From: an archaeon
GTDB lineage: Archaea > Iainarchaeota > Iainarchaeia > Iainarchaeales > CSSED10-239
Reading direction: 5' to 3'
NCBI GenBank assembly: GCA_035390665.1
Contig: DAOOUC010000004.1
Span: forward strand, 46,702-78,701
Length of the DNA: 32,000 bases
Part shown: one piece after another, positions 15,642-32,000 of the stretch
How the letters are laid out: every line of letters begins with the position of its first letter
Numbering within the stretch: the first letter of the stretch is position 1
Made by a program: the position numbers and the translations under genes
The notes under the pieces: model-generated
What the model saw: the letters and a program-made list of their open reading frames with translations, nothing else
Told to the model about the DNA's origin: nothing
The model's database searches: none

Positions 15642-16184
15642 CTATTTTTCCTTAGCTCCTGCTAAAACCTTCTTTAATTTATTTAATCCTTTAACTATGT
15701 CTTCTTCTGACTTTGCGCCCGCACAAATTAATTTTCCATTCTTGAAAAGTAACATTGTTAGCTTTGGATTAAAGATTCTTACAATTGCACCAGGAAATTG
15801 TTCTGGTTCATATTCAATATTATCTAAAGTAACTGCTGCATTAAAAAGATCAATTTGTTTATTTAAGTTAGACGTTGCAACAAGGTTAACAATCTTATAG
15901 CTTACTCTGTCCTTTATTGTAACATTCTTTTGAACTTCGCTAATTATCTTTGAAGCTTTCTTTATTGCAGTCTTTATGTCTTTTTCACTTGATGCTCCGG
16001 AAATTATAATGTTTCCATTCTTGAAAAGAAGTAAAGAAACTCTTGGTTCATCCATTTTTAAAATTGCACCAGGAAATTGCTCTGGTTCATATTCAACTTC
16101 AGGTATTGCTGTTGCAAGATTATAAAGATCTAAGCCTGTACCAAGAGAACTAGATGCCACTAAATTAACAATTTTATATTCCAT
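15642..16184 (-). CDS. tbp: TATA-box binding protein
   Basis: 180 aa made of two direct repeats (KIVNLVASSSLG...EQFPGAILKM...LLLFKNGNIIISGA and KIVNLVATSNLN...EQFPGAIVRI...MLLFKNGKLICAGA). Confidence 0.95.
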   Translation of the reverse strand: MEYKIVNLVASSSLGTGLDLYNLATAIPEVEYEPEQFPGAILKMDEPRVSLLLFKNGNIIISGASSEKDIKTAIKKASKIISEVQKNVTIKDRVSYKIVNLVATSNLNKQIDLFNAAVTLDNIEYEPEQFPGAIVRIFNPKLTMLLFKNGKLICAGAKSEEDIVKGLNKLKKVLAGAKEK

Positions 16185-24846: not shown

Positions 24847-25788
24847 TTATTTTTTTGCAAAAATAATTAAAATAATCAAAATTATAAAAATTGCAAGCAA
24901 AACATGTGTTTTTGAGTCGTCCATTTTAAATAAAGAACTATTAATTTTTGGAAGACTTAAAAAACCTGTAATGTTATTTTCTTCTGGCTGAACTGATGTT
25001 TGTAAAATTTCTTTTTGAGTTTCTTCTTTTGGAGTATATCTTATCTTTATTTCTTTAATGTCTATTGTCTCATAACCATCTTGTAATTTACAATTTAAGA
25101 AATAATCATTAGCTTCTATTGATTTATTTTTATCAATTGAGAGATTGATGTCTATTTTTTGAGAATTTATATAATTATAGTTAACAACTATTGCTGGATT
25201 ACTGGTAATACAATCTAAAGAATAAGTATTTCCTTCTTCTTTATTTACATAAATAGAAATTAAATCACTATCTTTCTTTCCATTAATTACAGCAATTGAT
25301 CTTGAAAGATTATAACCTAAGATTCTTGGTCTTGTGTGGTTAATTGTATAGTTATAATATTCTTCCGAATTGTTTGGAATTATTGTAATATATTTCTGTG
25401 TTGTTTTTATTTTATTATTATATTTATCTAAAATTTCTACTTTTAATTGTAAGGTTTTATTCTCTGTTAAGGTTTTGGTGTTAACATATATTTTTTCTTT
25501 AGTGTCTAAATTATTATAGAAATAAAACTCTTGTGTTGAAACTAATGCACTTATTTCTGAATCATTTGGAAAAATACTTACAGAAATATTTACTTTTCCT
25601 TCTTTTAATTCTTCTGATAAGAACTTAATTCTAAAGTCTATTTCTTTTGTGCTATTATTTGAAACATAGAAGGTACTTGGTTTGTCTTGAGAAGATTGTA
25701 TATTAACATTTAAACTATCTGCAAAAATAAACGGAAAGATAAATACACCAAATATTAAAAATACCAAAATTAGTTGTTTTTTATTCAT
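24847..25788 (-). CDS. Secreted, C-terminally anchored surface protein, unknown function
   Basis: 313 aa. Signal peptide MNKKQLILVFLIFGVFIFPFIFADS, an Asn-rich beta-type body with many N-x-S/T sequons, and the C-terminal helix VLLAIFIILIILIIFAKK. Confidence 0.5.
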   Translation of the reverse strand: MNKKQLILVFLIFGVFIFPFIFADSLNVNIQSSQDKPSTFYVSNNSTKEIDFRIKFLSEELKEGKVNISVSIFPNDSEISALVSTQEFYFYNNLDTKEKIYVNTKTLTENKTLQLKVEILDKYNNKIKTTQKYITIIPNNSEEYYNYTINHTRPRILGYNLSRSIAVINGKKDSDLISIYVNKEEGNTYSLDCITSNPAIVVNYNYINSQKIDINLSIDKNKSIEANDYFLNCKLQDGYETIDIKEIKIRYTPKEETQKEILQTSVQPEENNITGFLSLPKINSSLFKMDDSKTHVLLAIFIILIILIIFAKK

Positions 25789-25909: not shown

Positions 25910-26398
25910 ATGATATTTGATATTGATGTAAGTGGGGAAGATATTTTAAGTGGAGACTATGCTGTTTGTATATCTGATAATAATCAAATAATAAAAGCAT
26001 TTAAGATGCATCCAAAAACCGTAAATCAAATAAATAAGAATTTTAATTTAGGTAAATACACAAAATATAAACCAACTCTTAAGAAAAAGAAAGATTTGAA
26101 AATTAGAATTTACTCTATAATTATCTATTATATATTTAAAGAATTAAACCTCAATTCCAATATAGAATTAAAAATATGTAGAGATTTTTATAATAGAGAA
26201 CAAGATATAATTTATAATCTGGAATATTTTTTAATTACAAAATTAAATTTAAGAATTAATAATATAGAATTTTGTAAATTAGAATCCAAATCTTTAGCAC
26301 ACAAATATTCTTATTTAATAAGAAAAAATCTTATAGATTCTAGAAAATATCTTATTAAAATTAGTTTAGAAGAAATTGAATTATTTTTATCTAAATAA
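25910..26398 (+). CDS. Hypothetical protein (orphan, 162 aa)
   Basis: ATG start preceded by an AT-rich promoter-like spacer. I recognise no motif. The extreme K/N/I/Y composition means coding status itself is not certain. Confidence 0.4.
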   Translation: MIFDIDVSGEDILSGDYAVCISDNNQIIKAFKMHPKTVNQINKNFNLGKYTKYKPTLKKKKDLKIRIYSIIIYYIFKELNLNSNIELKICRDFYNREQDIIYNLEYFLITKLNLRINNIEFCKLESKSLAHKYSYLIRKNLIDSRKYLIKISLEEIELFLSK

Positions 26399-26673: not shown

Positions 26674-26762
26674 CGCAAGGGATGGGATTTGAACCCATGT
26701 GTGGTATTACCCACATCTAGTTTTCGAGACTAGCACCTTCAACCAGACTCAGTCACCCTTGC
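26674..26762 (-). tRNA. tRNA-Ser (anticodon CGA), class II, no encoded CCA
   Basis: Reverse complement: GCAAGGGTGACTGAGTCTGGTTGAAGGTGCTAGTCTCGAAAACTAGATGTGGGTAATACCACACATGGGTTCAAATCCCATCCCTTGCG. Acceptor stem is 7 bp (GCAAGGG/CCCTTGC). Anticodon stem is CTAGT/ACTAG with loop CTCGAAA. The long variable arm has a 5-bp stem. T arm is ATGGG-TTCAAAT-CCCAT, and the discriminator is G. Confidence 0.9.
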
Positions 26763-27088
26763 TTATACAAGTAGTCGTTAATAACTTTTAATAGGTCTGT
26801 TAGCATAGTTTTTGCAACTTTTTCTTGAGTTGTGTCTCTTATTATTATTTTTAAAGAACTAAATATTGTTATTGTTCCTTTTTTTGTTTTTAGAACAATT
26901 AAAAATGGAGAGTTATCTTTTTCTATAAAATAATTCTTTGCTCTTAAAGTCATTAATAATTTCTCTAAATCAATCTTTGTTGATTTCTTTGGATAAAATT
27001 CAAAACCAGGTGTTGCTTTACAACTATCTAAAATAAAAGAATCAACTGTAAGATTTTTATCTTCTTTTTTATTAAGTAGGTTTAACAT
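26753..27088 (-). CDS. Small protein with a TBP-repeat-like strand-strand-helix core, unknown function; partner of the upstream ATPase
   Basis: 111 aa from the ATG at 27088, or 115 aa from the GTG at 27100, which lies 3 nt after the ATPase stop. The core KKGTITIFSSLKIIIRDTTQEKVAKTMLTDLLKVI resembles by eye the TBP repeat unit (..LLLFKNGNIIISGASSEKDIKTAIKKASKII). Its last 10 nt, including the TGA, lie inside tRNA-Ser. Confidence 0.5.
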   Translation of the reverse strand: MLNLLNKKEDKNLTVDSFILDSCKATPGFEFYPKKSTKIDLEKLLMTLRAKNYFIEKDNSPFLIVLKTKKGTITIFSSLKIIIRDTTQEKVAKTMLTDLLKVINDYLYKQG

Positions 27089-27103
27089 ATGATTTTTCAC
27101 TTT

Positions 27104-29749
27104 TTATGCATCAATGATTTGACCAAGAACTGCATCAATAAGAATTGTTCTGTCATTTGCTCTTTTGTCTCTTGAGGTTATATCCCAGATTGGCCAATAT
27201 ATTTTTTCTATATTTTCTATTTCTATGTTTTGCCATAATTTTTCTAGTCTTTTAACTGTCTCTTCCTCAGGGATGTCTTTATCAATATCTGTTTTAGAAA
27301 TTAATTGTTTTCTTAGTGGCAAATTATCTACAGAAGAAAGAATTGTATATCTTGGAGAGAATGGCAAATCTATTCCTCTCTTAATTCTAAATTTTTCTTC
27401 CTTGTTTATTATTGAAACATCTACTATGTCTTTATTAACTAAAGATACTAAATCTTCCTTTACTTCTTGCTCTGAAGCATTTAATATCTGTGAGAGTTCT
27501 TTTGGTGTAATCCACCTTTCAAGATTATCTAACAGAACAATGTCATCTGTTGAGATATCTTCAACAATATCAAGGCCTGTTGATTCTTTAAAAATTCCAT
27601 CATAATGTAAGAATTCTCCAGTAACTGAATCCACATAACAACAAGACTTTGTGTAATTTTCTTCATCATCAAAAATATTATAATTGATTTTATAGATTTC
27701 TCTATAAAGTAATTTTATTTCAGAAATAAACTCTTCTTCTTTTAAAAATATTAATTTTTTCTTATTTGTTCTGCTTGCTATATTAATTGCAATTTCTCTT
27801 GAGATTCTTGAAGGAAGTATTGGAACTGTTTCTGGTTCTATTGTTTCTGGAGTTATTGCTGTCTCTAGTTGTTCTCCTTGCTCTTCAACTAAATTAGAAT
27901 ACTCAATTGCTTGATTAATATTTTGTACTTCTTCTTTAGAAATTTCTGCTTTTTGTTTTTTTTCTGCAAATAATAATATTTTTTCTTTTTCAACAATCCC
28001 CATCTTACTTAAAGAAACAAGTAATTCGTCAAAAGTTACTTCGCTATTATATTTCGAATTAACAACATCAAGAATATCTTTTGCATCACTTACTTTTAAA
28101 GTTTTTGAAGAAAGTAATTTCTTATAAATCATGTCTGAAGAAAAGTTAATTATTTCTTTTTTAGAAAGCTTTGGAACTTCTCTTATAGTTTCTGCATCTC
28201 TTCCTTCGTGTTGACTTAATCTTGGTTTAATCTTTAGAATAAACGCTCTTTTTGTTTCTTCGCCACGATCACCAGTTAGAGCAACACCCACAGGTAAAGT
28301 CTTTATGAAGTTTGGATCTTTATAAACGTCAGGAATAATTGCAGGCATTCTTTTCTGGACTGCGTGAATATCATCATTAAATACAAGCTTATGGCTTAAG
28401 AAGATATCAACCTGAGACAATACCTTAGAATTGATTGCTGATGGTTGTTGAGTTGCAAGAACCATAGAACATCCTGGTCTTCTTCCTTGCTTAACGTATT
28501 CTATGATGGCATTAGTTGCTGGAGTTATGGTGTTACCTGAAGGAATCAATGTGTGAGCTTCATCAATATACACCCATGTTGGTGGAATTGAAATCTCAAG
28601 TAACTCATCTGGGCTCTCTGAAGTTGAATCAAACTTTTTAATTGCATCTTGCCTTGTTACTAGTTTTCTTGCTGCTAGTATTCTTCTTGCTAATATTCCA
28701 ATGACAAGAGCAGTAATATTATCATCTAAAAAACTTGTATCAAGAATTGTTAGTTGCTTTTCTTTTGATAATTTTGATAATGGAGTCCCATGATCACTAA
28801 ATATTCCCCAGGACTTTGCAGCTTCAAATCTTGAAACTAAAGCTCTAATTGAATCTTGCTTATAGCCTGATGATGATGACTTAAATTCATAAGCATTTTG
28901 CAAGCAATAAATAATATCTTCTAAAGTGTAAAGATTTCCTTTAGCTGGAATTTGTTCTATCTCTATTTCTTCATTAGTTGGGTCTCCGGCCTTATATCCG
29001 TGTTTTACAAAAGATAGTGTTTTCTCAAGAAGTAAACCAGTTGGATTAAATCTATCAATTCCAAAAGTTAGACACCAATCTTCAGCTAGAAGCATTGAAG
29101 GATACATTGAGAATGTTTCATCAAAGGTTTCTTTAGAAACTTTACCTACAACTCCTTCTGGAACAAAAACTTTTAGATTGTTTAAACCTTTAGGTGCTAG
29201 TCCCCAATTTGCAAGATCCTCTATTTCTTTCTTTTCTTGGTTTGGGTATTTCATGGACCAAAAGACACCTACTGGATCAACAACAACTTGACCAATATAA
29301 GGGTTGTTGACAGCTAACTCTTCAGCAATTACACCAAGGCCATAACTTTTTCCTGAACCTCTTGAACCGTCTATAAAAACTACGTGGGGGTTTAAGCCAT
29401 CAAGATAAACCTTTTTATCCCTTTGATCGTCTTCAAAAACTTTTCCTAAGAATGCACAAGATCTTGAACCATGTTCTTTCAGAACAGATTTTTTTCTTCC
29501 AATATAGACTATTTCAGAATCCTCTGGATCTGTCAAAAACTCTAGTTTTGGAGTAATCTCTTTGAGCCGGTTTCGCTCGGACTCGCGCGCAGTGATATTT
29601 TCTTTCTTTTTTATTTCTGACTTTTTTGGTTTTTCTAAATCTTCAGGGTTAAGGGTTGGAAGTTCTGTCTGATAGATACTTTCATCATTTTCGATTTTAT
29701 CAAAAGGATTGATACCATCACTTTTAGATTTTTCAACAGCCATAACCAT
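27104..29749 (-). CDS. HerA/FtsK-superfamily (DUF87-type) P-loop ATPase with ~350-aa non-canonical C-terminal extension containing an HTH-like segment
   Basis: Walker A GSRGSGKS (29345..29368), Walker B WVYIDEAH, and the family-typical ATQQPSAINSKVLSQVDIFLSHKL. The track start is a TTG at 29752; an ATG follows at 29749. The C-terminal part has an acidic linker and two modules ending VDSVTGEF and IDAVLGQI. These flank ITPKELSQILNASEQEVKEDLVSLVNKDIV. Confidence 0.8.
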   Translation of the reverse strand: MVMAVEKSKSDGINPFDKIENDESIYQTELPTLNPEDLEKPKKSEIKKKENITARESERNRLKEITPKLEFLTDPEDSEIVYIGRKKSVLKEHGSRSCAFLGKVFEDDQRDKKVYLDGLNPHVVFIDGSRGSGKSYGLGVIAEELAVNNPYIGQVVVDPVGVFWSMKYPNQEKKEIEDLANWGLAPKGLNNLKVFVPEGVVGKVSKETFDETFSMYPSMLLAEDWCLTFGIDRFNPTGLLLEKTLSFVKHGYKAGDPTNEEIEIEQIPAKGNLYTLEDIIYCLQNAYEFKSSSSGYKQDSIRALVSRFEAAKSWGIFSDHGTPLSKLSKEKQLTILDTSFLDDNITALVIGILARRILAARKLVTRQDAIKKFDSTSESPDELLEISIPPTWVYIDEAHTLIPSGNTITPATNAIIEYVKQGRRPGCSMVLATQQPSAINSKVLSQVDIFLSHKLVFNDDIHAVQKRMPAIIPDVYKDPNFIKTLPVGVALTGDRGEETKRAFILKIKPRLSQHEGRDAETIREVPKLSKKEIINFSSDMIYKKLLSSKTLKVSDAKDILDVVNSKYNSEVTFDELLVSLSKMGIVEKEKILLFAEKKQKAEISKEEVQNINQAIEYSNLVEEQGEQLETAITPETIEPETVPILPSRISREIAINIASRTNKKKLIFLKEEEFISEIKLLYREIYKINYNIFDDEENYTKSCCYVDSVTGEFLHYDGIFKESTGLDIVEDISTDDIVLLDNLERWITPKELSQILNASEQEVKEDLVSLVNKDIVDVSIINKEEKFRIKRGIDLPFSPRYTILSSVDNLPLRKQLISKTDIDKDIPEEETVKRLEKLWQNIEIENIEKIYWPIWDITSRDKRANDRTILIDAVLGQIIDA

Positions 29750-29826
29750 CAATAAATATATTTTAGATAATATTATAAGAAACTAAAGAAATATAATATA
29801 TTAGGGTTTTTAAAGATAACTGGAAA

Positions 29827-30657
29827 CTATATAGTGATACTTTTATTTACAAATAAAGTTGGATGAGTAATATTTTGGTCTATTGTTTTTGTATTTAATG
29901 CATTAATCCGTTTTATAGTAAGATCTAAATATTTCTTATCTAAATCGATACCAATATATTTCCTAGAATACATGCGTGACACTAAGCCCGTTGTTCCTGA
30001 ACCATTAAATGGATCTAATACTGTGTCTCCTTTATCTGTTGTTGAAAGTATTATTCGTTTAAGTAATTCTAGGGGTTTTTGAGTTGGATGCTTTCCTAAT
30101 TTTTTTTCTTGCTGTGGGGTTAAAGGTATATTCCAAACACTTCTCATTTGTTTTCCAGATTCACTTATTTTATCATCCCATTTTTTCATAAGTTCATAAT
30201 TAAATTTGTGTTTTGATTCTTTTTCTTTTCTTGCCCAGATTAATGTTTCGTGACTATGTGTAAAATATCTACAACTTAAATTTGGAGGCGCATTAGGTTT
30301 ATACCAACAAATTTCATTAAGTATTTGATAATTTTGCATTTGTAATGCATAACCAACTTGATAAATATTGTGCATCGTTCCAGAAATCCAAATGCTGCCG
30401 GTATTTTTTAGAACTCTTCTACATTCAGATAACCAGCTAAAGGTAAATTCAAAATCTTTATTCATACCGTTTGATTTATCCCAATCAGCTTTATTTACTG
30501 ACACCATTTTTCCTGCTCTACAAGAAATACCCCCATTAGATAAAAAATAGGGCGGGTCTGCAAAAATTAGATCCACTGAATTGTCTGGTATTTCTTTTAA
30601 AATATCTAAACAATCCCCTTGATAGAGATTGAAATCTAGAGAATTATAGTGTTTCAT
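29827..30657 (-). CDS. Beta-class N6-adenine/N4-cytosine DNA methyltransferase (R-M)
   Basis: Motif IV DLIFADPPYF lies near the N-terminus and motif I VLDPFNGSGTTG near the C-terminus, which is the beta-class order. The track ORF begins at a TTG (30714) abutting the nuclease stop. I prefer the ATG at 30657 (MKHYNSLDFNLYQGDC...). Confidence 0.85.
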   Translation of the reverse strand: MKHYNSLDFNLYQGDCLDILKEIPDNSVDLIFADPPYFLSNGGISCRAGKMVSVNKADWDKSNGMNKDFEFTFSWLSECRRVLKNTGSIWISGTMHNIYQVGYALQMQNYQILNEICWYKPNAPPNLSCRYFTHSHETLIWARKEKESKHKFNYELMKKWDDKISESGKQMRSVWNIPLTPQQEKKLGKHPTQKPLELLKRIILSTTDKGDTVLDPFNGSGTTGLVSRMYSRKYIGIDLDKKYLDLTIKRINALNTKTIDQNITHPTLFVNKSITI

Positions 30658-30714
30658 AAAATATATAGTATATTTATTATTTATATACCTTTCTAGGGTA
30701 GATGTCCAGTGCAA

Positions 30715-31236
30715 TTAAGGATTTGGTAATCCTAAAAAGTCTAAAGGTATTTCATTAAAGAAATAATAACAATTTACTGATTTTATGTAATCTAAAACAT
30801 CTTTGTATTCTTGTTTTTTAAACCAGTCGTTTAGAACATAACAATATTTTACTTTTATATTTAACGGCTTAAATAATTTATTATATTGTTTATTTTTGAA
30901 ATCACAAGTTTGTAATTTTTCATCTACTGATCCTGAAACTTCTTGAAATTTTATTTCAATAATAAATAAAGTGTTTTCCTTCATAACAAAAATCGCATCA
31001 TCTGGTAATAATTTTTTAGAGATGTAATTTAGATAATTTATGCCTTTTGGTTCTAAAAAGTTTTTATAAATTTTATTTTTTTGATAAAATGTCGCTATTT
31101 TTTTATTATCAAAAAACACGTCTTCTCCTTTAATTTCATACCTTTTCATTCCGGAAAATATTTGCTTTAAAGAGATTCTTTCTTCAAATCTTAATCCTGT
31201 TATAGTCCTTCCGCCACCAACGCCACTTTTTATCAT
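30715..31236 (-). CDS. Putative type II restriction endonuclease, PD-(D/E)xK fold (173 aa)
   Basis: LPDDAIFVMKENTLFIIEIKFQ supplies a PD...ExK catalytic pattern. The gene is sandwiched between two DNA MTase genes, with the SD AAGGTGAT before its ATG. No family-level recognition. Confidence 0.5.
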   Translation of the reverse strand: MIKSGVGGGRTITGLRFEERISLKQIFSGMKRYEIKGEDVFFDNKKIATFYQKNKIYKNFLEPKGINYLNYISKKLLPDDAIFVMKENTLFIIEIKFQEVSGSVDEKLQTCDFKNKQYNKLFKPLNIKVKYCYVLNDWFKKQEYKDVLDYIKSVNCYYFFNEIPLDFLGLPNP

Positions 31237-31246
31237 TTTATCACCT

Positions 31247-32000
31247 TTAATAATTTTTTATCAAAACTTCTTTTATATTGTTTCTTTTAGCACCATCACA
31301 GTTTATCATTCTTTTTGCAGATATTTCTTTTATTTTATAATTTTTATAAAGATTTTTTATAAAATCAGTAGAACTATTACTTTCTAGTACAAAACACCCT
31401 TTTTTATCTAATGCTCCATAAACTTCTTTTAATCTCATTTGATCTTTTCTTGTAAAATTGTTACTAGTATAACTAACAAAACTATTTTCGGTTATTTGAT
31501 CATAAGGTGGATCAAAATATATAAAATCTTTTATTTTTGCTAAATGCAATGTATCCTCAAAAGGCATAACTTTTAATTCTACATTTTGCAATAATATAGA
31601 GGTTTCGATTATATTTTTTTTATTAAATATCTCTGGATTTTTATATCTACCTATTGGAACATTAAACTTATTGTCTTTGTTTACACGATAAAGACCATTA
31701 AAACAAGTCTTATTTAAATAAATAAATCTGGCTGCTTTTTCTACTTCTCCTAAATGTATATTAGAATCACTTAGTGTAATTCCCATTCTTTGTGTAGCTG
31801 TTGTTTCTAAACCTCTAACTGTATAATAAAATTCTGAGGAGTGTTGTGATTTATAATATTCTAATTCTTTAATCAATTTCTCTGGTTTTGTTTTAATAAT
31901 ATTATAGGTATCTATTAATTCCACGTTAATATCAGATGCAATTACTTTTTTTGGATTATAATTTTCTAAAATATAGAATAATAAAGCTCCACCACCAAGA
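31247..32000 (-). CDS. Alpha-class (Dam-like, D12) N6-adenine DNA methyltransferase, N-terminus cut by window edge
   Basis: The track starts at an internal GTG (31924), but the frame stays open to 32000. Hand translation of 31925..31999 gives LGGGALLFYILENYNPKKVIASDIN, which is SAM motif I plus the ADIN-like motif of Dam. Motif IV FIYFDPPY lies in the C-terminal half, which is the alpha-class order. Confidence 0.85.
   Translation of the reverse strand, partial: LGGGALLFYILENYNPKKVIASDINVELIDTYNIIKTKPEKLIKELEYYKSQHSSEFYYTVRGLETTATQRMGITLSDSNIHLGEVEKAARFIYLNKTCFNGLYRVNKDNKFNVPIGRYKNPEIFNKKNIIETSILLQNVELKVMPFEDTLHLAKIKDFIYFDPPYDQITENSFVSYTSNNFTRKDQMRLKEVYGALDKKGCFVLESNSSTDFIKNLYKNYKIKEISAKRMINCDGAKRNNIKEVLIKNY

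What the first reader, a model, noticed from the sequence alone, without database searches (positions are those of the whole stretch)
26753..29752. HerA/FtsK-type ATPase with an HTH-bearing C-terminal extension plus a small TBP-fold-like partner: candidate uncharacterised two-gene module in a defence-island context
The N-terminal half of the ~881-aa protein is an unmistakable HerA/FtsK-superfamily ATPase (GSRGSGKS, VYIDEAH, ATQQPSAINSKVLSQVDIFLSHKL). The C-terminal ~350 aa is not part of canonical HerA. It has an acidic linker and then two beta-hairpin-like modules with a shared ending: LLYREIYKINY...CCYVDSVTGEFL and KIYWPIWDITS...ILIDAVLGQII. These bracket a helix-turn-helix-like stretch (ITPKELSQILNASEQEVKEDLVSLVNKDIV).

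A motor plus a C-terminal DNA-reading winged helix is the design logic of FtsK. HerA-family motors also drive several described systems when paired with an effector (NurA in repair; Sir2 or DUF4297 in anti-phage defence). None of those partners is present here. Instead a 111-115 aa protein follows within 3-15 nt. Its core looks, by eye, like one TBP-type repeat; compare it with the genuine TBP at 15642..16184.

The pair has its own AT-rich promoter spacer (29753..29826). It sits between a three-gene R-M cassette and a tRNA gene, which is typical accessory or defence-island context.
Basis: partly seen in the sequence, partly recalled or inferred. Interest (0 to 1): 0.75.

Follow-up and report, generated by a model that had tools for sequence, protein, structure and literature searches.

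The report
Archaeal HerA-like motor with TBP-like partner
This is a conserved chromosomal gene pair of a small-genome archaeon (Iainarchaeota): an undescribed kind of HerA-type ring ATPase with a tail containing a DNA-binding-type fold, followed by a tiny protein made of half a TATA-binding protein. It looks like core DNA-handling machinery of unknown role, not an anti-virus defence module.

Summary
ORF 27104..29752(-) encodes an 882-aa HerA-clade P-loop ATPase with a roughly 350-aa extension. ORF 26753..27100(-) encodes a 111-115-aa protein that is a genuine single TBP repeat: Pfam TBP above its cutoff, family profile against M. jannaschii TBP E=2e-9, and an AF2 model (pLDDT 90) that matches TBP structures.

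The two "beta-hairpin modules" are PepSY-like domains flanking a TrmB/ArsR-type winged helix. A second winged helix and two acidic disordered stretches are also present.

The defence-island interpretation is not supported:
- The ATPase is present in 275 species genomes. The best 80 are essentially all Iainarchaeota, including two complete genomes and the reference single-cell genome Ca. Iainarchaeum andersonii.
- It sits in conserved housekeeping synteny, is highly conserved, and sometimes carries an intein in its Walker A loop.
- It is absent from viral contigs.
- The adjacent R-M cassette is absent from 86 related loci.

The PepSY-wHTH-PepSY module is always attached to DUF87/HerA-like ATPases in other archaea (Hadarchaeota, Theionarchaea, Nanoarchaeia, Aenigmatarchaeota), again among housekeeping genes. 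The TBP-like gene is phylum-wide. It is operonic with the ATPase in this subclade and within about 6 kb in many others.

Most likely this is a hexameric DNA motor for chromosome maintenance, with a TBP-fold DNA-binding accessory. The function is untested.

The parts
27104..29752 (-). CDS of the 882-aa HerA-clade ATPase (probable true start is the ATG at 29749, giving 881 aa)
   Evidence: ORF. Pfam DUF87. More than 875 homologues at 43-99% identity over the full length. AF2 model with pLDDT 84.6. HerA structures are the top Foldseek hits.
29567..29752 (-). N-terminal disordered tail (aa 1-62). It is acidic and variable in length across the family.
   Evidence: pLDDT below 50. The family median is 169 aa with net charge -20, reaching -75 at the extreme.
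29399..29545 (-). Short N-terminal beta domain (aa 70-118) in the position where HerA carries its HAS-barrel
   Evidence: The AF2 model shows three strands and one helix at pLDDT above 90. Mean column identity is 0.60.
28199..29395 (-). RecA-like ATPase core (aa 120-518). Walker A GSRGSGKS lies at 29345..29368 and Walker B VYIDEAH at 28556..28576.
   Evidence: Invariant G129, G132, G134, K135, S136, D397, E398, Q435, Q436 and R424 in 96 sequences. Mean column identity is 0.76. The PADLOC mad8 profile is matched end to end, E=1e-15. In P0091 an intein is inserted between K135 and S136.
27968..28162 (-). First winged-helix-like domain (aa 531-595)
   Evidence: AF2 secondary structure of three helices plus a hairpin, pLDDT about 90.
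27833..27967 (-). Acidic, poorly conserved linker (aa 596-640)
   Evidence: pLDDT below 50. Median net charge is -8 and column identity 0.23.
27584..27832 (-). PepSY-like domain 1 (aa 641-723), ending in the invariant ...DSxTGEF motif
   Evidence: The AF2 model shows a helix plus a four-stranded sheet. Pfam PepSY is hit in 6 of 16 members, best E=5.9e-9. S724, G726 and E713 are invariant.
27383..27574 (-). Winged helix-turn-helix 2 (aa 727-790), TrmB/ArsR/MarR type
   Evidence: Pfam TrmB in 8 of 16 members, best E=4e-7. PDB profile hits to HlyU, ArsR and AdcR, E=2e-4. Net charge is about neutral across the family and -8 in this copy.
27107..27346 (-). PepSY-like domain 2 (aa 803-882), ending ...IDAVxGxxI
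   Evidence: AF2 model. Conserved W840, P854 and G877.
26753..27100 (-). CDS of the single-repeat TBP-domain protein (115 aa from GTG; probable start is the ATG at 27088, giving 111 aa)
   Evidence: The family motif is F..D.CK.TPGFEF.PK ... SPF ... F.SLKII, with F22, C27, E34, F35 and A96 invariant.
26674..26762 (-). tRNA-Ser(CGA). Its 5' end overlaps the last 10 nt of the small gene. It is a conserved neighbour, not part of the protein machinery.
   Evidence: ARAGORN. The same arrangement is found in L001, L007, L008, L010-L013, L015, L017 and L024.
29753..29826 (-). 74-nt AT-rich intergenic spacer upstream of the ATPase, the probable promoter region (inferred only)
   Evidence: Sequence. No archaeal promoter tool was available.

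Best explanation
The large gene encodes a member of an undescribed, widely distributed archaeal subfamily of HerA-clade ATPases.

Architecture, in order:
- an acidic disordered tail
- a short N-domain
- the ATPase core
- a winged helix
- an acidic linker
- a subfamily-defining PepSY-like / winged-HTH / PepSY-like module

In Iainarchaeota (DPANN) it is a core chromosomal gene. The next gene encodes a monopartite TBP-domain protein that is also phylum-wide. It is co-transcribed with the ATPase in this subclade and loosely linked to it elsewhere.

Shown: the folds, the intact catalytic motifs, the conservation, the distribution, the synteny, and the absence of defence or mobile-element signatures.

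Inferred: like other HerA-clade proteins, the ATPase forms a hexameric ring that translocates or remodels double-stranded DNA using ATP. The C-terminal module positions or regulates the ring on DNA or on a partner. The basic TBP-fold protein, perhaps as a dimer that recreates a TBP-like saddle, serves as a DNA-binding adaptor. The process served is chromosome maintenance (repair, replication-associated processing or segregation), not immunity.
For: HerA clade: Foldseek top hits are T. kodakarensis HerA-NurA (E=9e-18), S. solfataricus HerA, and SIR2- and DUF4297-HerA. The Walker A, Walker B, sensor and Arg residues are invariant in 96 sequences.

Core-gene behaviour:
- 275 GTDB species genomes carry it. 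The best 80 are all Iainarchaeota, including the complete genomes CP045477 and CP010424.
- The ATPase core has 76% mean column identity.
- There is one copy per locus, in conserved synteny with glmS/glmM/glmU, BacA, thioredoxin and AMP phosphorylase.
- The window itself carries FtsZ, PolB, Nre, AglB and TBP.
- Some orthologues carry an intein exactly in the Walker A loop.
- It is absent from viral contigs.
- The R-M genes are not shared by relatives.

The module is subfamily-defining: an exhaustive profile search finds it only C-terminal to DUF87 ATPases, some with SAP DNA-binding domains. These are in Hadarchaeota, Theionarchaea, Nanoarchaeia, Aenigmatarchaeota and Thermoprotei MAGs. Their neighbours include ribosomal genes, CDC48, an rRNA operon, DNA ligase and an XPD-like helicase.

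Partner: the TBP fold and homology are established, and most members carry net positive charge. The gene is adjacent in 24 of about 80 loci. In the reciprocal test it lies within 10 kb of the ATPase in 10 of 17 informative loci.
Against: No biochemical or genetic data exist for any member. Oligomeric state and DNA translocation are inferred from the superfamily only.

The winged helix is not consistently basic, and in this copy it has net charge -8. It may therefore bind protein rather than DNA.

PepSY-like domains have no known DNA role.

The ATPase-TBP-like link could be inherited synteny rather than function. The two genes are separated by oppositely oriented glm genes in much of the phylum. 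Relatives outside the phylum lack a TBP-like neighbour.

The nearest profile in a defence database (mad8) and a 30%-identical short ATPase in a BREX-like plasmid locus show that close cousins of the core do occur in defence contexts.

I could not scan whole genomes to see whether Iainarchaeota also keep canonical HerA-NurA.
Confidence: 0.55

Rival explanations
1. Two-gene anti-virus or anti-plasmid defence module. A HerA-type motor pairs with a new TBP-fold effector or sensor, within a defence island next to an R-M system.
For: HerA-family motors drive SIR2-HerA and DUF4297-HerA systems, and those structures are among the fold hits. The PADLOC mad8 profile is matched end to end. A 389-aa relative (30% identity, E=1e-46) lies in a BREX/PglZ-like, PD-(D/E)XK plasmid locus in Haloplanus. 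An R-M cassette is adjacent here.
Against: The R-M cassette is unique to this genome among 86 related loci. The gene is phylum-wide, in fixed housekeeping synteny, and very strongly conserved. An intein sits in the P-loop of some orthologues. The gene is absent from viral contigs. The small partner has no PADLOC hit and no predicted enzymatic or toxic domain. NCBIfam anti-phage HerA models score 29-38 bits against cutoffs of 800-850.
Confidence: 0.08
2. The two genes are independent. The ATPase is a core DNA motor. The monopartite TBP-domain protein has a separate role, for example a transcription-related or RNA/DNA-hybrid-binding factor. Their adjacency here is a by-product of genome streamlining within an old syntenic block.
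For: In most Iainarchaeota the genes are 1.5-6 kb apart with glmU/glmM/glmS on the opposite strand between them. About 40% of informative loci show no ATPase within 10 kb of the small gene. ATPase relatives in other phyla have no TBP-like neighbour. Monopartite TBP-domain proteins exist in Thermococcales with no stated link to ATPases (PMC3597702).
Against: Tight same-strand adjacency, with gaps of -31 to +59 nt, is kept across a subclade whose ATPases have diverged to 53% identity. It recurs in two or three distant loci: L026, L084 and L108. Linkage within 10 kb in 10 of 17 loci is more than expected for unrelated genes across this much divergence.
Confidence: 0.27
3. The ATPase remodels protein-DNA complexes rather than tracking along DNA, following Mot1/BTAF1-like logic. 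It would load, strip or recycle the TBP-fold protein (or TBP itself). The long acidic tails would act as DNA mimics that occupy the basic concave face of the TBP fold.
For: Acidic disordered N-tail and linker are a family feature, with medians of -20 and -8. The partner has a TBP fold and is basic. Winged helices in some members hit TFIIE-alpha and TrmB.
Against: This is entirely inferential. HerA-clade motors are known as DNA translocases. Most family members outside Iainarchaeota have no TBP-like partner nearby. Acidic tails are common and non-specific.
Confidence: 0.07
4. The cytoplasmic motor of a DNA uptake, export or secretion apparatus (Ced/VirB4-like), as might suit a host-dependent DPANN cell.
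For: Weak NCBIfam similarities of relatives to CedB, CedD, VirB4 and EssC, and weak Pfam TraG and TrwB P-loop hits in relatives. PepSY domains are usually extracytoplasmic.
Against: No transmembrane segment is evident in the translated sequence, and the AF2 model shows only soluble domains plus disordered acidic stretches. No conserved membrane or pilus genes lie next to the gene in about 100 loci. The hits to secretion ATPases are far weaker than those to HerA.
Confidence: 0.03

Closest known systems
Archaeal HerA (HerA-NurA DNA end-resection motor; PDB 4d2i, 9x1m)
   Same: Best structural match for the ATPase half (Foldseek E about 1e-17, prob 1.00). It has the same Walker A, Walker B and sensor layout, a large helical insertion between Walker A and B, and presumably a hexameric ring that pumps dsDNA.
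   Different: Identity is only 13-19%. NCBIfam HerA equivalogs score 38-46 bits against cutoffs of 800-970. The N-domain is about 50 aa with three strands, not a full HAS-barrel. No nurA, mre11 or rad50 lies within 6-10 kb in about 100 loci. A roughly 350-aa C-terminal wH / PepSY-wHTH-PepSY extension and acidic tails are added.
Anti-phage HerA systems (SIR2-HerA/Nezha, DUF4297-HerA, TdpAB) and the MADS mad8 ATPase
   Same: Same ATPase clade. The PADLOC mad8 profile aligns over its whole length. A short relative sits in a BREX-like plasmid locus.
   Different: There is no effector (Sir2, DUF4297, nuclease) and no other mad genes nearby. The gene is phylum-wide and syntenic rather than patchy and island-borne. 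The C-terminal module is absent from those proteins.
FtsK (motor plus C-terminal winged-helix gamma domain)
   Same: Same superfamily, and the same design idea of a ring motor carrying a C-terminal winged helix.
   Different: No FtsK_SpoIIIE Pfam hit, and the fold is closer to HerA. There are no membrane anchor or alpha/beta domains. The winged helix here is embedded between PepSY-like domains and is not consistently basic.
Monopartite TBP-domain proteins of Thermococcales and haloarchaeal TbpA (Brindefalk et al. 2013, PMC3597702)
   Same: About 90-115 aa, a single TBP repeat, divergent from the cell's own TBP, function unknown.
   Different: This is a different lineage (Iainarchaeota). It has a family-specific N-terminal strand and an invariant F..CK..(P)GFEF motif, and it is genetically linked to a HerA-like ATPase. 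I could not test whether the Thermococcales proteins are orthologous or similarly linked, because their sequences were not retrievable with these tools.
RNase HIII N-terminal domain / DUF3378 (TBP-like nucleic-acid-binding domain)
   Same: A single TBP-like fold used as a nucleic-acid-binding module. There are weak Pfam DUF3378 hits and a Foldseek hit to RNase H3 (rank 41). JGI labels some homologues 'ribonuclease HIII'.
   Different: No RNase H catalytic domain is present. Similarity to true TBP is stronger than to the RNase HIII domain.

Membership tests
FtsK-HerA superfamily of P-loop ATPases | Walker A GxxGxGK[ST], Walker B hhhhDE, and a conserved polar sensor and Arg residues in a RecA-like core | tested here: met
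   GSRGSGKS, VYIDEAH, ATQQP and QGRRPG are invariant in 96 sequences. Pfam DUF87 E=1e-10. The fold matches HerA hexamers.
Canonical HerA (DSB-repair helicase) | Scores above the equivalog cutoff of the NCBIfam HerA models | tested here: not met
   For the window protein the canonical HerA equivalog models (NF040819, NF040937) give no hit at E<=0.1. The Hadarchaeal member scores 46 bits against a cutoff of 970.
Canonical HerA (DSB-repair helicase) | N-terminal HAS-barrel of about 100 aa | tested here: inconclusive
   The AF2 model shows only about 50 structured residues (three strands, one helix) before the core. No residue-level superposition was available.
Canonical HerA (DSB-repair helicase) | NurA partner and linkage to mre11/rad50 | tested here: not met
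   None is present within 6-10 kb in about 100 loci. The SMC_N-type neighbour in L089 is SMC, not Rad50. Whole genomes were not scanned.
Anti-phage HerA systems (SIR2-HerA, DUF4297-HerA) | An adjacent Sir2 or DUF4297 effector, and a score above the NF042943/NF042944 cutoffs | tested here: not met
   Scores are 29-38 bits against cutoffs of 800-850. No such neighbour was found.
MADS (methylation-associated defence system) | mad8-type ATPase together with the other mad genes in one operon | tested here: not met
   The mad8 profile is matched. No other mad component was found among the six neighbouring proteins of the window scanned with PADLOC. The adjacent MTases are ordinary type II and are absent from relatives.
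FtsK/SpoIIIE | FtsK_SpoIIIE motor domain and a gamma winged helix | tested here: not met
   No FtsK_SpoIIIE hit in Pfam or NCBIfam at E<=0.1. The structural neighbours are HerA proteins.
TBP domain (Pfam PF00352, helix-grip fold) | Score above the Pfam gathering cutoff, with beta1-alpha1-beta2-5-alpha2 topology | tested here: met
   23.9 bits against a cutoff of 22.9, and 12 of 19 members hit. The profile hits archaeal TBPs at E=2e-9 to 2e-5. The AF2 topology is E-H-E-E-E-E-H with one extra N-terminal strand. Foldseek matches TBPs with prob 1.00.
TATA-binding protein proper (general transcription factor) | Two tandem TBP repeats forming the saddle | tested here: not met
   There is only one repeat in 90-123 aa in all 177 clusters. 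The genome has its own two-repeat TBP at 15642..16184. NCBIfam TBP scores 17.8 bits against a cutoff of 181.
PepSY domain (PF03413) | Pfam hit, with a helix packed on a four-stranded sheet ending in a ...D..tGe.. motif | tested here: inconclusive
   6 of 16 family members hit, best E=5.9e-9, and the AF2 topology fits. The window copy itself is below threshold, and no separate fold search of this domain was possible.
Winged HTH (TrmB/ArsR/MarR type) | Three-helix bundle plus a beta wing, with a profile match | tested here: met
   TrmB in 8 of 16 members, best E=4e-7. PDB profile hits to HlyU, ArsR and AdcR at E=2e-4 to 6e-3. AF2 places H735-742, H750-757, H761-773, E777-782 and E785-790. DNA binding itself was not tested.

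The most novel reading that the evidence does not exclude
The pair is the core of a previously unrecognised archaeal DNA-transaction machine. A HerA-clade ring motor carries a PepSY-wHTH-PepSY module that defines a new, phylogenetically broad subfamily. In Iainarchaeota this motor works with a monopartite TBP-fold protein. This would give single-repeat TBP domains (proposed stepping stones in TBP evolution) a concrete function as adaptors or substrates of an ATP-driven motor. In streamlined DPANN genomes the machine might replace HerA-NurA, or act as a Mot1-like remodeller.
Probability: 0.2. Interest if true: 0.75.

Novelty: new variant of a known kind. Interest (0 to 1): 0.55.

Why it matters
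HerA-clade motors are currently known from two settings: DNA end resection with NurA, and anti-phage systems with Sir2, DUF4297 or nuclease effectors. This locus points to a third lineage, conserved in several archaeal phyla. It has its own domain architecture, no nuclease partner, and the signature of a core gene. It is therefore probably an unstudied piece of archaeal chromosome biology, and it is retained even in roughly 1-Mb DPANN genomes.

The locus also supplies the first genomic-context clue for monopartite TBP-domain proteins. Their existence has been used in arguments about the origin of TBP, but their function is unknown.

There is a practical lesson too. Proximity to one R-M cassette and a tRNA gene was a misleading defence-island cue.

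Tried and rejected
1. Defence reading. It was tested with PADLOC, context comparison across 86 or more loci, viral contigs and plasmids. I rejected it for this orthologous group. Only a short ATPase-only cousin sits in a defence-like plasmid locus.

2. Canonical HerA. Rejected on NCBIfam scores and the absence of nurA, mre11 or rad50 neighbours. A Rad50-like neighbour in three loci proved to be SMC.

3. tRNA as an integration site. Rejected, because the tRNA-Ser overlap is conserved in relatives.

4. Truncated Dam MTase. Rejected, because the ORF simply runs off the window end with its FGGGA motif in frame.

5. Literature. Searches on HerA with DPANN, NurA, wHTH, PepSY or dark matter found no description of this family. 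The Iyer 2004 FtsK-HerA paper is not held. The MADS preprint gives no function for mad8.

7. Winged helix as a DNA reader. This is left open, because its charge is neutral to acidic.

Full report
OBSERVATION

The region holds two same-strand ORFs on the minus strand. The first is 27104..29752, 882 aa from TTG. An ATG one codon in gives the 881 aa of the 99%-identical database protein P0001. The second is 26753..27100, 115 aa from GTG. The ATG at 27088 gives 111 aa, the length of most homologues. The gap is therefore 3-15 nt.

tRNA-Ser(CGA) lies at 26674..26762 and overlaps the last 10 nt of the small ORF. Upstream, after a 74-nt AT-rich spacer, come three genes:
- an N4/N6 DNA methyltransferase
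- a 173-aa protein with a weak PD-(D/E)XK signal
- a Dam-type methyltransferase, whose ORF in fact runs off the window end with its FGGGA motif in frame

WHAT THE LARGE PROTEIN IS

Pfam gives DUF87/HerA central domain (E=1e-10). PADLOC gives several HerA profiles plus an end-to-end match to the 314-position mad8 profile. An AlphaFold2 model built on 96 homologues has mean pLDDT 84.6 and resolves these parts:
- a disordered tail (aa 1-62)
- a short three-strand N-domain (aa 70-118)
- the ATPase core (aa 120-518)
- a winged-helix-like domain (aa 531-595)
- a low-confidence acidic linker (aa 596-640)
- a helix plus four-stranded-sheet domain (aa 641-723)
- a winged HTH (aa 727-790)
- a second helix-plus-sheet domain (aa 803-881)

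Foldseek against the PDB puts HerA structures first: T. kodakarensis HerA-NurA at E=9e-18, then S. solfataricus HerA, SIR2-HerA, DUF4297-HerA, D. radiodurans HerA and TdpA. Identity is only 13-19%. The protein is HerA-clade, not FtsK or VirB4.

It is not canonical HerA. For the window protein the canonical HerA equivalog models give no hit at E<=0.1, and the anti-phage HerA models reach 29-38 bits against cutoffs of 800-850. A Hadarchaeal member reaches 46 bits against 970 for canonical HerA. The N-domain is about half the size of a HAS-barrel.

Walker A, Walker B, the ATQQP sensor region and several arginines are invariant in 96 sequences.

THE C-TERMINAL EXTENSION

I scanned 16 diverse C-terminal regions individually. 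Pfam TrmB wHTH is hit in 8 (best E=4e-7) and PepSY in 6 (best E=6e-9). A profile of the region hits ArsR, HlyU and MarR winged helices in the PDB (E=2e-4).

The winged helix is not consistently basic. The family median net charge is +1, and this copy is -8, so DNA reading is unproven. The N-terminal tail and the linker are acidic and highly variable in length. The tail has a median of 169 aa with net charge -20, reaching -75.

An exhaustive HMMER search of 1.84 billion representatives with the C-terminal profile found 306 proteins. In every one I examined, the roughly 250-aa PepSY-wHTH-PepSY module sits at the C-terminus of a DUF87/HerA-like ATPase of about 520-1470 aa. Some also carry DUF835 and SAP domains. 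Named members come from Hadarchaeota, Theionarchaea, 'Euryarchaeota', Nanoarchaeia, Aenigmatarchaeota and Thermoprotei MAGs. The module therefore defines a broad archaeal subfamily.

WHAT THE SMALL PROTEIN IS

- Pfam TBP scores 23.9 bits, above the gathering cutoff of 22.9. It is hit in 12 of 19 family members.
- A family profile hits M. jannaschii TBP at E=2.3e-9 and Pyrococcus and Sulfolobus TBPs at about 1e-5.
- The AF2 model (pLDDT 90.1) has TBP-repeat topology with one extra N-terminal strand.
- Foldseek returns TBP structures with probability 0.99-1.00 and TMq 0.45-0.55, as expected for half a TBP.
- It aligns to both repeats of the genome's own two-repeat TBP at 15642..16184.

The family has 177 clusters at 90% identity, all 'archaeon' or Diapherotrites where named. 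It has invariant F22, C27, E34, F35 and A96, and most members are net basic.

Monopartite TBP-domain proteins have been described in Thermococcales and haloarchaea, with unknown function (PMC3597702). I could not test orthology with those.

CONTEXT AND DISTRIBUTION

A scan of one genome per GTDB species found 275 genomes with a relative of the ATPase. The best 80 (43-79% identity, full length) are Iainarchaeota. They include the complete genomes of Ca. Forterrea multitransposorum and AR10, and the single-cell genome of Ca. Iainarchaeum andersonii. Three contigs are labelled as bacterial bins, which is probably mis-binning.

In the closest relatives (77% identity) the pair and the downstream genes are syntenic with the window. 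Those downstream genes are tRNA-Ser, a 313-aa protein, YdjM, BacA, thioredoxin and AMP phosphorylase. The R-M cassette is absent there, and unrelated genes lie upstream. Across 86 related loci, the window's Dam MTase and 173-aa gene have no homologue. The N4/N6 MTase has one, located elsewhere in L010.

The window itself is core chromosome, carrying FtsZ, PolB, Nre, AglB and TBP. The tRNA-Ser overlap is conserved in at least 10 relatives. No relative occurs in IMG/VR viral contigs. The only notable plasmid hit is a 389-aa ATPase-only protein (30% identity, E=1e-46) in a BREX/PglZ-like, PD-(D/E)XK locus of a Haloplanus plasmid.

Some orthologues carry a LAGLIDADG intein inserted exactly between the K and S of Walker A. 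This insertion site is typical of slowly evolving, important ATPases (established knowledge).

Outside Iainarchaeota, subfamily members sit beside varied housekeeping genes, with no TBP-like or nuclease partner:
- mevalonate kinase and an apparent rRNA operon
- CDC48
- the L11-L1-L10-P1 ribosomal cluster
- an XPD-like helicase and DNA ligase

IS IT A TWO-GENE MODULE?

The small gene directly follows the ATPase on the same strand, with gaps of -31 to +59 nt, in 24 of about 80 species loci. That set comprises nearly every locus whose ATPase is at least 53% identical (L022 is the one exception), plus L026 and L084. Elsewhere in the phylum the usual order is ATPase(+), then glmU/glmM/glmS(-), then the small gene(+), 1.5-6 kb apart.

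I also ran the reciprocal test. Starting from distant small-gene homologues in metagenomes, 10 of the 17 loci with at least 7 kb of upstream sequence have the ATPase within 10 kb. Nine of those are upstream on the same strand, and one is 68 nt away. The linkage is therefore real and old, but not obligatory. It is confined to Iainarchaeota.

INTERPRETATION

Shown:
- a new domain architecture within the HerA clade
- intact catalytic motifs
- phylum-wide, syntenic, highly conserved distribution
- a genuine single-repeat TBP-fold neighbour
- no defence or mobile-element signature for this orthologous group

Inferred: the ATPase is a hexameric dsDNA translocase or remodeller that serves chromosome maintenance. 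The C-terminal module positions or regulates it. The basic TBP-fold protein acts as a DNA-binding adaptor in Iainarchaeota.

Rivals, with my estimated probabilities:
- the two genes are functionally independent (0.27)
- a defence module (0.08)
- a Mot1-like remodeller of TBP-fold proteins that uses the acidic tails as DNA mimics (0.07)
- a DNA-uptake or secretion motor (0.03)

VERDICT

The defence-island framing rests on a strain-specific R-M insertion and is not supported.

The finding is a new variant of a known kind: an uncharacterised, widely conserved archaeal HerA-clade subfamily, linked in one phylum to a monopartite TBP-domain protein. It is moderately interesting, and I found no published description of it.

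Noticed in passing
window 26753..26762 (overlap of the small CDS and tRNA-Ser 26674..26762, minus strand); also L001, L007, L008, L010-L013, L015, L017, L024: The last three codons and the stop of the TBP-like gene (K-Q-G-TGA) lie inside the 5' acceptor stem of tRNA-Ser(CGA). The overlap is conserved in at least 10 relatives. In some database proteins (P0136, P0151) the ORF reads on into the tRNA (...YKQGWLSPVEGASLEN). The tRNA is therefore probably co-transcribed with, or promoted from within, the small gene.
   Followed up: partly
P0091 residues 220-656; L089 1..4256 (1462-aa product): Some orthologues of the ATPase carry a roughly 437-aa LAGLIDADG intein inserted exactly between the K and S of the Walker A motif (GSGK|S).
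   Followed up: partly
window 29827..32000 (minus strand): The cassette comprises a Dam-type MTase, a 173-aa protein with a weak PD-(D/E)XK hit, and an N4/N6 MTase (CcrM-like, 264 bits). It resembles a two-methylase GATC-type R-M system. The Dam ORF is not truncated: it continues in frame past the window end (…LGGGALLFYILENY…). The cassette is absent from 86 related loci, so it is a recent insertion.
   Followed up: partly
P0314, P0328, P0340, P0355 (1200-1470 aa); L093 7001..10747: Long members of the same ATPase subfamily carry an inserted DUF835 domain, and often a SAP DNA-binding motif, between the ATPase core and the PepSY-wHTH-PepSY module. In L093 the gene sits next to the L11-L1-L10-P1 ribosomal protein cluster.
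   Followed up: partly
L095 (Haloplanus sp. HW8-1 plasmid NZ_CP098519.1, 116089..117258): A 389-aa ATPase-only relative (30% identity, E=1e-46; matches PADLOC mad8 end to end) lies between a protein annotated 'BREX system ATP-binding domain-containing', a PglZ-like protein, a PD-(D/E)XK nuclease and a helicase. It is a possible defence-system cousin of the core ATPase.
   Followed up: partly
L028, L036, L049 (GTDB contigs JAFCCG010000001.1, JAFCBY010000010.1, CAMTXJ010000014.1): Contigs assigned to Chloroflexi, Falkowbacteria and Peregrinibacteria bins carry this archaeal gene at 45-47% identity. L049 shows the same match coordinates, identity and contig range as L050, which is labelled 'uncultured archaeon'. 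The contigs are probably mis-binned.
   Followed up: no
L005, L006, L089 (about 3.6-7 kb downstream of the ATPase): An SMC gene (TIGR02169, 584 bits in L089) recurs downstream of the ATPase in three distant Iainarchaeota loci. This may be only synteny.
   Followed up: partly
L154 2371..9886: In a genome carrying a short (518-aa) subfamily member (unnamed; other ~520-aa relatives are named Nanoarchaeia and Aenigmatarchaeota), the gene lies between an XPD-like helicase and an ATP-dependent DNA ligase. This is a DNA-repair-flavoured neighbourhood, but it is a single example.
   Followed up: no
L001 7324..7917 and the equivalent 197-aa ORFs in L007, L010, L015: In close relatives the gene directly upstream of the ATPase is a conserved 197-aa protein. 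It has faint RNase H-fold / PolB-exonuclease-like similarity (Pfam RNase_H_2 faint; NCBIfam Pol II exo region E=4e-4). In the window the R-M cassette occupies this position.
   Followed up: partly
window 24847..25788(-) and 25910..26398(+): Two ORFs have no significant family hit: the 313-aa ORF none at E<=1e-5, the 162-aa ORF only chance-level hits (E about 0.05). The first is a 313-aa protein with an N-terminal hydrophobic segment, many N-x-S/T sites and a C-terminal hydrophobic anchor (conserved in 18 related loci). The second is a 162-aa lysine-rich protein found only in L011.
   Followed up: no
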